In this document: positions 43,051-63,880 of the stretch, in pieces
How positions within the stretch are numbered: position 1 is the stretch's first letter
Layout: each line of letters begins with the position of its first letter
From: Eledone cirrhosa
Lineage: Eukaryota
NCBI GenBank assembly: GCA_964016885.1
Contig: OZ024763.1
Location: 27,714,001 to 27,778,000, forward strand
DNA: 64,000 nt
Reading direction: 5' to 3'
Notes under the pieces: generated by a model
Databases searched by the model: none
Seen by the model: the letters and a program-made list of their open reading frames with translations, nothing else
Told to the model about the DNA's origin: nothing
Program-made: the position numbers and the translations under genes

Positions 43051-43096
<46 letters not shown>

Positions 43097-43101
<5 letters not shown>

Positions 43102-43190
43102 TAGATTGACTTAGAAACTCAAAGAAGTCTTTTACAATTAAATTTTAATTGTAAAAGACTTCTTTGAGTTTCTAACTCAATCTATGATAT
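43097..43190. repeat. Near-perfect ~94-bp palindrome adjoining (TA)n
   Basis: tcatagattga...aattaaaattttaatt...tcaatctatga. Confidence 0.85.
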
Positions 43191-44363: not shown

Positions 44364-44510
44364 AACAAATTGGGTCAATTGGGCCATAACGCACTATAGT
44401 ACTCAATACTTAGGGTAATAGAGTGGGTAATAAGAAAAGAGTCAGGATCCCCGACGGCTGAGCTCCGGTCGTTTCGACAGCTAGATCCGAACTGAATGAG
44501 TTCGGATATA
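44364..44510 (-). mobile_element. Diverged family C element
   Basis: Tail (ccataacgcac...gtactcaatacttagggta) plus ccccgacggctgagctcc...gtttcgac. Confidence 0.75.
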
Positions 44511-52085: not shown

Positions 52086-52115
<30 letters not shown>

Positions 52116-52118
<3 letters not shown>

Positions 52119-52392
52119 AAAAAGAATGACCCCGACGGCAGCGCTCAAGCCGTTTCGACGGCTATTTCTGGACTAAATTAGAATTTTTAGCCTGGTAAAT
52201 AAATAGCCGAACTTGTCAAGGGGTACTTCCTTATATGGGAAGATTGTAGTGGTCGTGACTACAATCTTCCCATATAAGGAAGTACCCCTTGACAAGTTCG
52301 GCTATTTATTTACCAGGCTAAACATTCTAATTTAGTCCAGAAATAGCCGTCGACACAGCTTGAGCTCTGCCGTCGGGGCATTCTTTTTCCTA
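52116..52392. mobile_element. Longest family C fold-back element
   Basis: ~277-bp palindrome centred at ~52255, in (TA)n. Confidence 0.88.
52129..52224 (-). ncRNA. Type I hammerhead with U3-A8 core (family C); mirror copy on plus 52284-52378 has a mutated GAAA
   Basis: Minus: acccc-TTGACAA-g.cggctattt...aaatagccg.c-GAA-ACGGC(ttgagcgct)GCCGT-C-ggggt. GUC triplet. Confidence 0.8.
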
Positions 52393-59700: not shown

Positions 59701-59751
59701 AAATAAAATAAAATAAATAAGTCAAATGTTAAAAATTTGGCTTCGTTTATT

Positions 59752-59806
59752 ACTGCTATATATATTTCGGTGACAGCCATCTTTGGCTGTGACCTCTTCA
59801 GGCAGT
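59752..59806 (-). ncRNA. Type I hammerhead ribozyme (family G)
   Basis: Minus: actgc-CTGAAGA-ggt.acagcca(aaga)tggctgt.acc-GAAATATATATA-gcagt. Lies between inverted ends 59698-59727 and 59912-59940; tail to ~60035. Confidence 0.88.
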
Positions 59807-60032
59807 CCGAATTAGTGTGGTAGAGACGAGTACATATGTTGTTGAGGTGTATAACTTTGTCAATTCTCTGATATGCCCAGTACCTGGTTGGGTTGTTATT
59901 TCACTGAGGAAATTTGACTTATTTATTTTATTTTATTTTACATTACTCCGAAGTAACCAAACCAACCTGCGCACATCGTCGAGTGCTCAAATCTGCATAC
60001 TGAGGTGTTGGTATACAACCAACATATACTCA

Positions 60033-61812: not shown

Positions 61813-62116
<304 letters not shown>

Positions 62117-63311: not shown

Positions 63312-63880
63312 TGTGGATTGGCAATATCGGTAGAGGGTCGGACGCCATGCTTTCCAGCATAGTTACGTCCCTTTACGATCTGAGTTCAAATCCCGCCGAG
63401 GTTGACTTTGCCTTTCATCCTTACGGGGTCGATAAAATAAAGTACCAGTGATGCACTGGGTAATTGCTGGCCTTGTGCTTAAAGTAGAAACAATTATTTT
63501 ATGTAAAGGGTGGTGGATTGGCAGTATCGGTAGGGGGTCGGACGCCATCCTTTGATGCATAGAGTTACGACCCTTTCCAATCTGAGTTCAAATCCCGCCG
63601 AGGTTAACTTTGCCTTTCATCCTTACGGGGCCGATAAAATAAAGTACCAGTAATGCACTGGGTAATTGCTGGCCTTGTGCCAAAAGTAGAAACAATTATT
63701 TTATGTAAAGAACCTTTATCCAGTTATGATCAAAATACCAGTTTAGTAACGGTTTCTGATTGAGAATAGGAGGAAATCGATAAAATCGACTCCTGTGCAT
63801 AATTGGTACTTTGTTTTATCGACCCTGTAAGGACGTAAGGCAAAGCTAACCTCGACGAGATTGGAATTCAGAACGGAAAC
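63312..63880. mobile_element. Two tandem plus-strand SINEs (~198-bp spacing) and one inverted partial copy
   Basis: ggattggca.tatcggtag at ~63315 and ~63515; minus-strand body at 63765-63880. Confidence 0.85.

What the first reader, a model, noticed from the sequence alone, without database searches (positions are those of the whole stretch)
52129..52378. Family C hammerhead has a compensatory U3-A8 catalytic core (UUGACAA)
Both arms of the palindrome read TTGACAA where CTGANGA is expected, with stem I (acccc/ggggt), a long stem II, GAAA and a 5-bp stem III with GUC intact on the minus arm. Positions 3 and 8 form a Watson-Crick pair (C3-G8) in the active hammerhead, so a double change to U3-A8 is what selection for activity predicts. 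Presence in both arms suggests it was in the inserted template. Standard CUGANGA searches would miss this family, which is the most abundant one here (7 copies).
Basis: partly seen in the sequence, partly recalled or inferred. Interest (0 to 1): 0.85.

Follow-up and report, generated by a model that had tools for sequence, protein, structure and literature searches.

The report
Retrotransposon hammerhead with drifting catalytic pair
This is the tail end of a Penelope-like jumping gene carrying a predicted self-cutting hammerhead RNA with a known U–A swap in its core, and sister subfamilies that spread to over a thousand copies with that pair mismatched suggest the pair is likely not needed for the element to jump.

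Summary
Both arms of the palindrome at 52118–52391 read TTGACAA, and only the minus arm is a complete type I hammerhead.

The palindrome is an inverted pair of 5'-truncated 3' ends of a Hydra-clade Penelope-like retroelement (PLE) sitting in (TA)n. U3-A8 is the family state: 95 of the first 100 of 373 genome hits.

U3-A8 is not new. It was reported in nature in 2011 and in Schistosoma PLEs in 2014 (about 1,300 hits).

"Compensation by selection" is only partly supported. Across 15 subfamilies, the ten other core bases and stem I never change, and stem II covaries. Positions 3 and 8 change at about the rate of free sites. All four pyrimidine-3/purine-8 states were amplified. The mismatched C3×A8 state has at least 1,408 of 6,729 cores and spans five successive subfamilies, nested between two U3-A8 groups. 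In the window, only this one of the seven related loci contains the core.

Cleavage was not tested. Verdict: a new member of a known kind, with a useful natural mutational series.

The parts
52118..52250 (-). Left arm: 5'-truncated 3' end of the Penelope-like element, ending in (TA)n
   Evidence: the same end is seen in genomic copies
52129..52224 (-). Complete type I hammerhead motif
   Evidence: descriptor scans; fold
52213..52219 (-). Core U3 U4 G5 A6 C7 A8 A9
   Evidence: sequence; family state
52157..52212 (-). Long stem II (G10.1–C11.1, internal loop, 9 bp, distal hairpin)
   Evidence: 3 of 10 pairs with two-sided change across subfamilies
52135..52156 (-). GAAA and 5-bp stem III; loop reads GAGCGC here, palindromic GAGCTC in the family
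52133..52134 (-). Predicted cleavage site after GUC (C17)
   Evidence: inference from standard hammerhead numbering; untested
52251..52257 (.). Junction between the inverted arms
52258..52391 (+). Right arm: inverted copy with the same U3-A8 core (52289–52295) but broken GAAA (A14C), stem III and stem I
52090..52117 (.). (TA)n target microsatellite, left (also right of 52391)

Best explanation
The palindrome is two inverted, 5'-truncated 3' ends of a Hydra-clade Penelope-like retroelement in a (TA)n repeat, whose terminal hammerhead motif has the known U3-A8 core and is likely a slow, protein- or dimer-assisted ribozyme that the element likely does not need in order to insert. Shown: the copies sit downstream of an ORF with RT and C-terminal GIY-YIG-type motifs. 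One intact locus has inverted copy, pLTR with hammerhead, tail, 718-aa ORF and a second hammerhead. All copies keep the sequence beyond the cut site. The fold and ten core bases are fixed across 15 subfamilies, while positions 3 and 8 change by transitions. Inferred: the element's protein copies uncleaved RNA into (TA)n by target-primed reverse transcription, which gives the inverted truncated arms. Also inferred: the hammerhead in the upstream pLTR trims the transcript's 5' end about 190 nt before the ATG and/or serves as the fold that the protein binds. Selection on 3–8 pairing is weak, so U3-A8 is a long-lived tolerated state rather than proof of high activity. This window copy has no ORF and is likely inert.
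For: ORF upstream in the same orientation. An intact 718-aa ORF in L190 has RWR, DKT, YRDD, CxCx5C, CxxC and CxH and is 38% identical over 722 aa to P0092, which has Pfam GIY-YIG above cut-off. These match the Hydra-clade definition (PMC8557442 sec. 11). Architecture of L190 and the two 3' ends, with or without tail, match the PLE tail signature (PMC11167929 passages). Changes on the subfamily tree: other core 0 in 10 sites, stem I 0 in 10, GAGCTC 0 in 6, position 3 three, position 8 two, free regions 1.5–2.5 per site. C3×A8 count 1,408; one such copy has a 550-aa unbroken frame (L227). Holding all U3-A8 copies as one clade is rejected, p-AU 2e-49. Hammerhead core mutants did not affect insertion in vitro for an anole PLE, whose hammerhead needed protein to cleave.
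Against: No cleavage or expression data. Invariance of GAAA, stem III and GAGCTC is partly built in, because these were search anchors (up to 4–5 mismatches allowed); U4, G5, A6, A9 and stem I 5' were left free. Our own ORF gets no Pfam hit. The lineage went back to U3-A8 in its youngest subfamilies, and one old branch appears C3-G8; both hint at some selection for the pair. The clade test group was named after the tree was seen. Subfamily samples are small (3–51 copies) and not random.
Confidence: 0.68

Rival explanations
1. Strict compensation: U3-A8 is fully active and was selected to keep the 3–8 Watson-Crick pair.
For: U3-A8 is the majority state (69 of first 100 of 6,729) and is old (family D). 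It was regained in the youngest subfamilies. The Dp branch differs from D at both positions: C3 in 5 of 7 and G8 in 5 of 7 listed G7 rows. PMC3088659 sec. 8 states that covarying 3–8 pairs were shown active in vitro.
Against: Five successive subfamilies with at least 1,408 copies are mismatched. The 3–8 pair is formed in 62.5% of 24 representatives, against about 97% for stems I and III. There is no C3/G8 association (Fisher p 0.18). A pairwise scan of another hammerhead reported low activity for all doubles here except G3-C8.
Confidence: 0.12
2. Trans rescue: mismatch subfamilies were cut in dimers by co-expressed U3-A8 RNAs, because stems I and III and the GAGCTC palindrome are identical across subfamilies.
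For: Stems I and III keep their sequence while stem II covaries. Family C and the mismatch subfamilies S4/S5 have similar within-group ORF distances (0.058 against 0.051–0.059), so they likely overlapped in time. Dimer cleavage of PLE hammerheads is described.
Against: Sequence invariance could come from protein recognition and is partly an anchor effect. Stem III has 5 bp, so a monomer can fold. The cofold gains had no control. Age proxies rest on 2–6 copies each.
Confidence: 0.1
3. Register slip: in CUGAGAA, G7 takes the place of G8 and pairs with C3, with the spare A as the extra base before stem II, so the mismatch is only apparent.
For: Both origins of C3 (Dp and S3) coincide with G7. 96 of the first 100 C3×A8 rows have G7. 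An extra base between 9 and 10.1 is typical of PLE hammerheads.
Against: Only two origins, so shared inheritance explains the counts. It needs a core without N7, for which one whole-word search found no paper. U3-A8 subfamilies also carry G7.
Confidence: 0.07
4. Not a ribozyme motif: a palindromic DNA element (MITE-like) with a chance resemblance.
For: Rfam listed no hammerhead. Folding z is only −1.75, and the lowest-energy fold pairs the core with GUCGA.
Against: Position in the pLTR of an RT/endonuclease element; invariant core with a free N7; stem II covariation; the hammerhead fold is within 0.3 kcal/mol of the minimum.
Confidence: 0.03

Closest known systems
Hydra clade of C-terminal EN+ Penelope-like elements (Craig et al. 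2021, PMC8557442)
   Same: Single ORF of about 718 aa, DKT, RW[K/R], CxCx5C linker, C-terminal GIY-YIG-type domain, (TA)n insertions, 3' hammerhead, inverted truncated copies.
   Different: All Hydra-clade hammerheads listed in File S2 have the canonical CUGANGA core and short stem II. This lineage has U3-A8, U3·G8 and C3×A8 cores, a long stem II and a longer 3' UTR. I did not align it to the published consensus sequences.
U3-A8 minimal hammerheads of Schistosoma mansoni Cercyon PLEs (Cervera & De la Peña 2014, PMC4209133)
   Same: Same U3-A8 core in a PLE, about 1,300 mostly solo hits, opposite-strand pairs, palindromic loop 3.
   Different: Those are minimal motifs without a real stem III; here stem III has 5 bp with a 9-nt loop. 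No amplified mismatch subfamilies were mentioned in the parts read (1–2 of 4).
Natural hammerhead core variants (Perreault et al. 2011, PMC3088659)
   Same: C3-G8 covarying to U3-A8 in several natural examples.
   Different: Section 8 gives no within-lineage path through mismatch states.
PAc Poseidon PLE of the green anole (Frangione et al. 2024, PMC11167929)
   Same: pLTR hammerhead, two 3' ends (tail), uncleaved RNA as template.
   Different: Different clade, canonical C3-G8 core, tested in vitro.

Membership tests
Type I hammerhead ribozyme | Three stems around the core, stem I open | tested here: met
   minus arm only
Type I hammerhead ribozyme | Core U4 G5 A6, A9, G12 A13 A14, A15.1–U16.1, H17 | tested here: met
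   0 changes in 10 sites over 15 subfamilies, partly anchored
Type I hammerhead ribozyme | Watson-Crick pair 3–8 | tested here: met
   U3-A8 in this copy and family; not met in subfamilies S3a–S5
Type I hammerhead ribozyme | Covariation in stems | tested here: met
   stem II: 3 pairs, 16 cells with two-sided change, 0 of 500 shuffles for cells; the count of pairs did not beat shuffles (449 of 500); related sequences inflate this
Type I hammerhead ribozyme | Loop I–loop II tertiary contact | not tested
   no analysis made
Type I hammerhead ribozyme | Self-cleavage after C17 | not testable with these tools
   needs a bench assay
Penelope-like element | ORF with RT and C-terminal GIY-YIG endonuclease | tested here: met
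   YRDD and VIYQ…YIG motifs; via homologue P0092; no direct Pfam hit; ORF absent from the window
Penelope-like element | pLTR tandem, inverted 5'-truncated copy, optional tail | tested here: met
   L190; ends
Hydra clade | DKT, RWK-type motif, CxCx5C linker, CxxC and CxH, (TA)n target | tested here: met
   read in L190 (RWR rather than RWK) against the definition
Hydra clade | Placement in a tree with named Hydra elements | not tested
   no named reference sequences were used
Non-LTR retrozyme | Non-coding tandem repeats with a hammerhead in every unit | tested here: not met
   dispersed copies linked to an ORF

The most novel reading that the evidence does not exclude
One retroelement lineage holds a natural record of a hammerhead's catalytic 3–8 pair passing through all four pyrimidine–purine states (C-G, U·G, U-A, C×A, back to U-A). 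The mismatch state was amplified to over 1,400 copies through five masters because its RNA was still cut, either in trans by co-active U3-A8 relatives through the shared GAGCTC palindrome or by G7 slipping into the G8 position.
Probability: 0.17. Interest if true: 0.68.

Novelty: new member of a known kind. Interest (0 to 1): 0.38.

Why it matters
U3-A8 itself adds little, beyond a reminder that descriptors must allow Y3/R8: a strict CUGANGA search would find about 5 of these 6,729 cores. The lineage is useful because why PLEs keep hammerheads is an open question. Here near-identical backbones with each 3–8 state, their copy numbers and an intact ORF are all available. One can therefore test directly whether cleavage rate tracks retrotransposition success, or whether the fold is kept for protein binding.

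Tried and rejected
Rfam scan: no hammerhead among the rows shown, only microsatellite-driven miRNA hits.

Pfam on our ORF pieces and on the full ORF: 0 families. PDB sequence search with P0001: 0. A DNA search with a sister-subfamily copy came back empty and shows nothing.

A C3-G8 revertant subfamily at the base of S3 was considered after and rejected: 0 of the first 100 of 324 S3 rows are C3-G8, so those copies look sporadic. A G3-A8 subfamily was rejected: purine-3 cores are 44, scattered over backgrounds. A-to-I editing of A8 opposite C3 was rejected: G8 is no commoner in C3 than in U3 backgrounds. CpG decay as the origin of A8 was rejected: the C3-G8 branch has G7, and U3-A8 occurs with T7 and A7 in older families.

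The root among D, Dp and E is unresolved, so whether C3-G8 is ancestral or a reversion cannot be told.

Sequencing runs: no RNA holder listed. Earlier scan findings: none. Lünse et al. 2017 was not held. Przybilski & Hammann 2007 was not read and is known here only through its citation in PMC3088659.

Full report
OBSERVATION. Window 52118–52391 is a near-perfect palindrome between (TA)n tracts, with arms 96% identical over 133 nt. The minus arm is a complete type I hammerhead motif: stem I ACCCC/GGGGT, core TTGACAA (52219–52213), G10.1–C11.1, long stem II, GAAA, 5-bp stem III and GUC. The plus arm has the same core but A14C, a stem III mismatch and a lost T in stem I. Six other related loci lie in the window; all are truncated and lack the 5' core. 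The lowest-energy fold pairs the core with GUCGA. The hammerhead fold is 0.3 kcal/mol higher and holds about 23% of the predicted ensemble (no tertiary contacts modelled).

FAMILY STATE. With positions 3, 7 and 8 left free, the family pattern has 373 exact hits (control 0). Of the first 100 listed, counted by eye, 95 are U3-A8, 2 C3-A8, 2 G3-A8, 1 U3-U8 and none C3-G8; N7 is C, A or T. The copy is not an outlier. Contigs of a public run show the same family variation, including T>C at position 3 and N7 variants; that run may not be independent of the assembly.

WHAT IT BELONGS TO. The window (G000:C24, a 3.0-Gb genome; host not determined) has no ORF of the element, but longer copies continue upstream into one. 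L190 has the full layout: (TA)n, inverted truncated copy with tail, truncated direct copy ending in the hammerhead, then an ATG about 190 nt after the predicted cut site. A 718-aa ORF follows, with another hammerhead about 670 nt behind it. The protein shows RWR, DKT, YRDD, CxCx5C, a VIYQ…YIG motif, CxxC and CxH. It is 38% identical over 722 aa to P0092, which has a GIY-YIG hit above cut-off; our ORF has no Pfam hit of its own. These features and the (TA)n target define the Hydra clade of Penelope-like elements (PMC8557442; I read passages, section 11 and part 2 of 59 of the supplement). Copies end at one of two points about 85 nt apart, like the tail explained by two reverse-transcription starts (PMC11167929, passages).

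IS U3-A8 NEW? No. PMC3088659 section 8 reports C3-G8 covarying to U3-A8 in several natural hammerheads and cites earlier in vitro activity. PMC4209133 (parts 1–2 of 4 read) reports U3-A8 in Schistosoma Cercyon PLEs with about 1,300 hits, and low in vitro activity of minimal PLE hammerheads. Against easy rescue, passages of PMC9901934 say only the G3-C8 swap was rescued in a full pairwise scan of another hammerhead (supplements not opened). All Hydra-clade hammerheads in the File S2 table are canonical. I found no report of amplified mismatch subfamilies in eight paper searches; subscription papers, including Lünse 2017, were not available.

IS IT COMPENSATORY HERE? Anchoring outside the core gives 6,729 cores. 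The first 100 (all on contig C1, counted by eye) are 69 U3-A8, 28 C3×A8, 2 U3·G8, 1 G3-A8 and 0 C3-G8. Whole-genome counts with these anchors: C3×A8 1,408, any G8 41 of which 5 C3-G8, purine at 3 44. C3 and G8 are not associated (8.6 expected, 5 seen, p 0.18). An older group (259 hits) is U3-A8 apart from a small G7 branch with C3 in 5 of 7 and G8 in 5 of 7 listed rows.

I sorted 235 of 236 fetched copies (a non-random sample) into 15 subfamilies. Trees of ORF DNA (33 copies; L011 left out because its ORF piece, about 400 nt further upstream than in other C copies, did not look contiguous), of the hammerhead region with 3, 7 and 8 masked (144 copies) and of protein with outgroups agree. D, Dp and E (U3-A8, C3-G8, U3·G8; order unresolved) lie outside. 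Then comes family C (U3-A8, this locus), then a ladder of five C3×A8 subfamilies, and nested within it the U3-A8 subfamilies S6/S7, of which S6b/S6c are the least diverged. Forcing the U3-A8 copies together is rejected (p-AU 2e-49; group named after seeing the tree). Mismatch subfamilies carry long ORFs (681–716 of 718 residues covered in four S4/S5 copies), so they were probably autonomous.

Changes on the subfamily tree: position 3 three, position 8 two, position 7 five, other ten core bases none, stem I none, stem III one in eight sites, GAGCTC none, free regions 1.5–2.5 per site. On 24 natural representatives, stems I and III are 97% paired, stem II 91% with three two-sided changes, and the 3–8 pair 62.5%. 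Caveat: GAAA, stem III and GAGCTC served as anchors.

MECHANISM. Shown: layout, retention of sequence past the cut site in every full copy, a conserved fold, a free 3–8 pair. Inferred: insertion proceeds from uncleaved RNA by target-primed reverse transcription into (TA)n, with a template switch giving the inverted arms. Also inferred: the hammerhead acts, if at all, slowly at the upstream pLTR, or as a protein-binding fold. This agrees with the anole PLE, where core mutants did not affect insertion and cleavage needed protein. Strict compensation, trans rescue in dimers and a G7 register slip remain as rivals and are each testable.

VERDICT. A real feature and a new member of a known kind. 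The headline variant is published; the value lies in the natural series of 3–8 states. Interest 0.38.

Noticed in passing
window 20331–20580: A second inverted pair whose arms carry a canonical CTGATGA…GAAA hammerhead-like motif with an 8-bp stem I (cores at 20377 − and 20532 +); likely another Penelope-like family.
   Followed up: no
window 59745–59810 (−): Single canonical hammerhead-like motif, core CTGAAGA at 59801, with a (TA)n-like stem III loop.
   Followed up: no
window 20055–20184, 34570–34642, 38606–38710, 44449–44508, 47466, 62019–62074: Very short truncated ends of the same lineage from at least four subfamilies. Read depth over the last 50 nt is tens of times that over the core, so core-less copies far outnumber the 6,729.
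   Followed up: partly
window 52229–52243 and all subfamilies: A conserved small palindrome or hairpin (CCATATATGG type) just upstream of stem I; it could be a stem I partner or a protein site. It was also a search anchor.
   Followed up: no
window 23800–27000: 41-bp tandem array of about 75 units, AC-rich on the plus strand.
   Followed up: no
window 1–156 / 515–670, 839–977, 43096–43190: Other inverted pairs or palindromes; 515–670 contains CTGATGA followed by a GAAA and may be a further hammerhead-bearing family.
   Followed up: no
window 16111–16248, 17276–17761, 63372–63879: Dispersed repeat of about 135 nt with several tandem copies near 17.3–17.8 kb.
   Followed up: no
L190:2983–5136: Intact 718-aa ORF in a young subfamily (two copies 0.9% apart); the element may be recently active.
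   Followed up: partly
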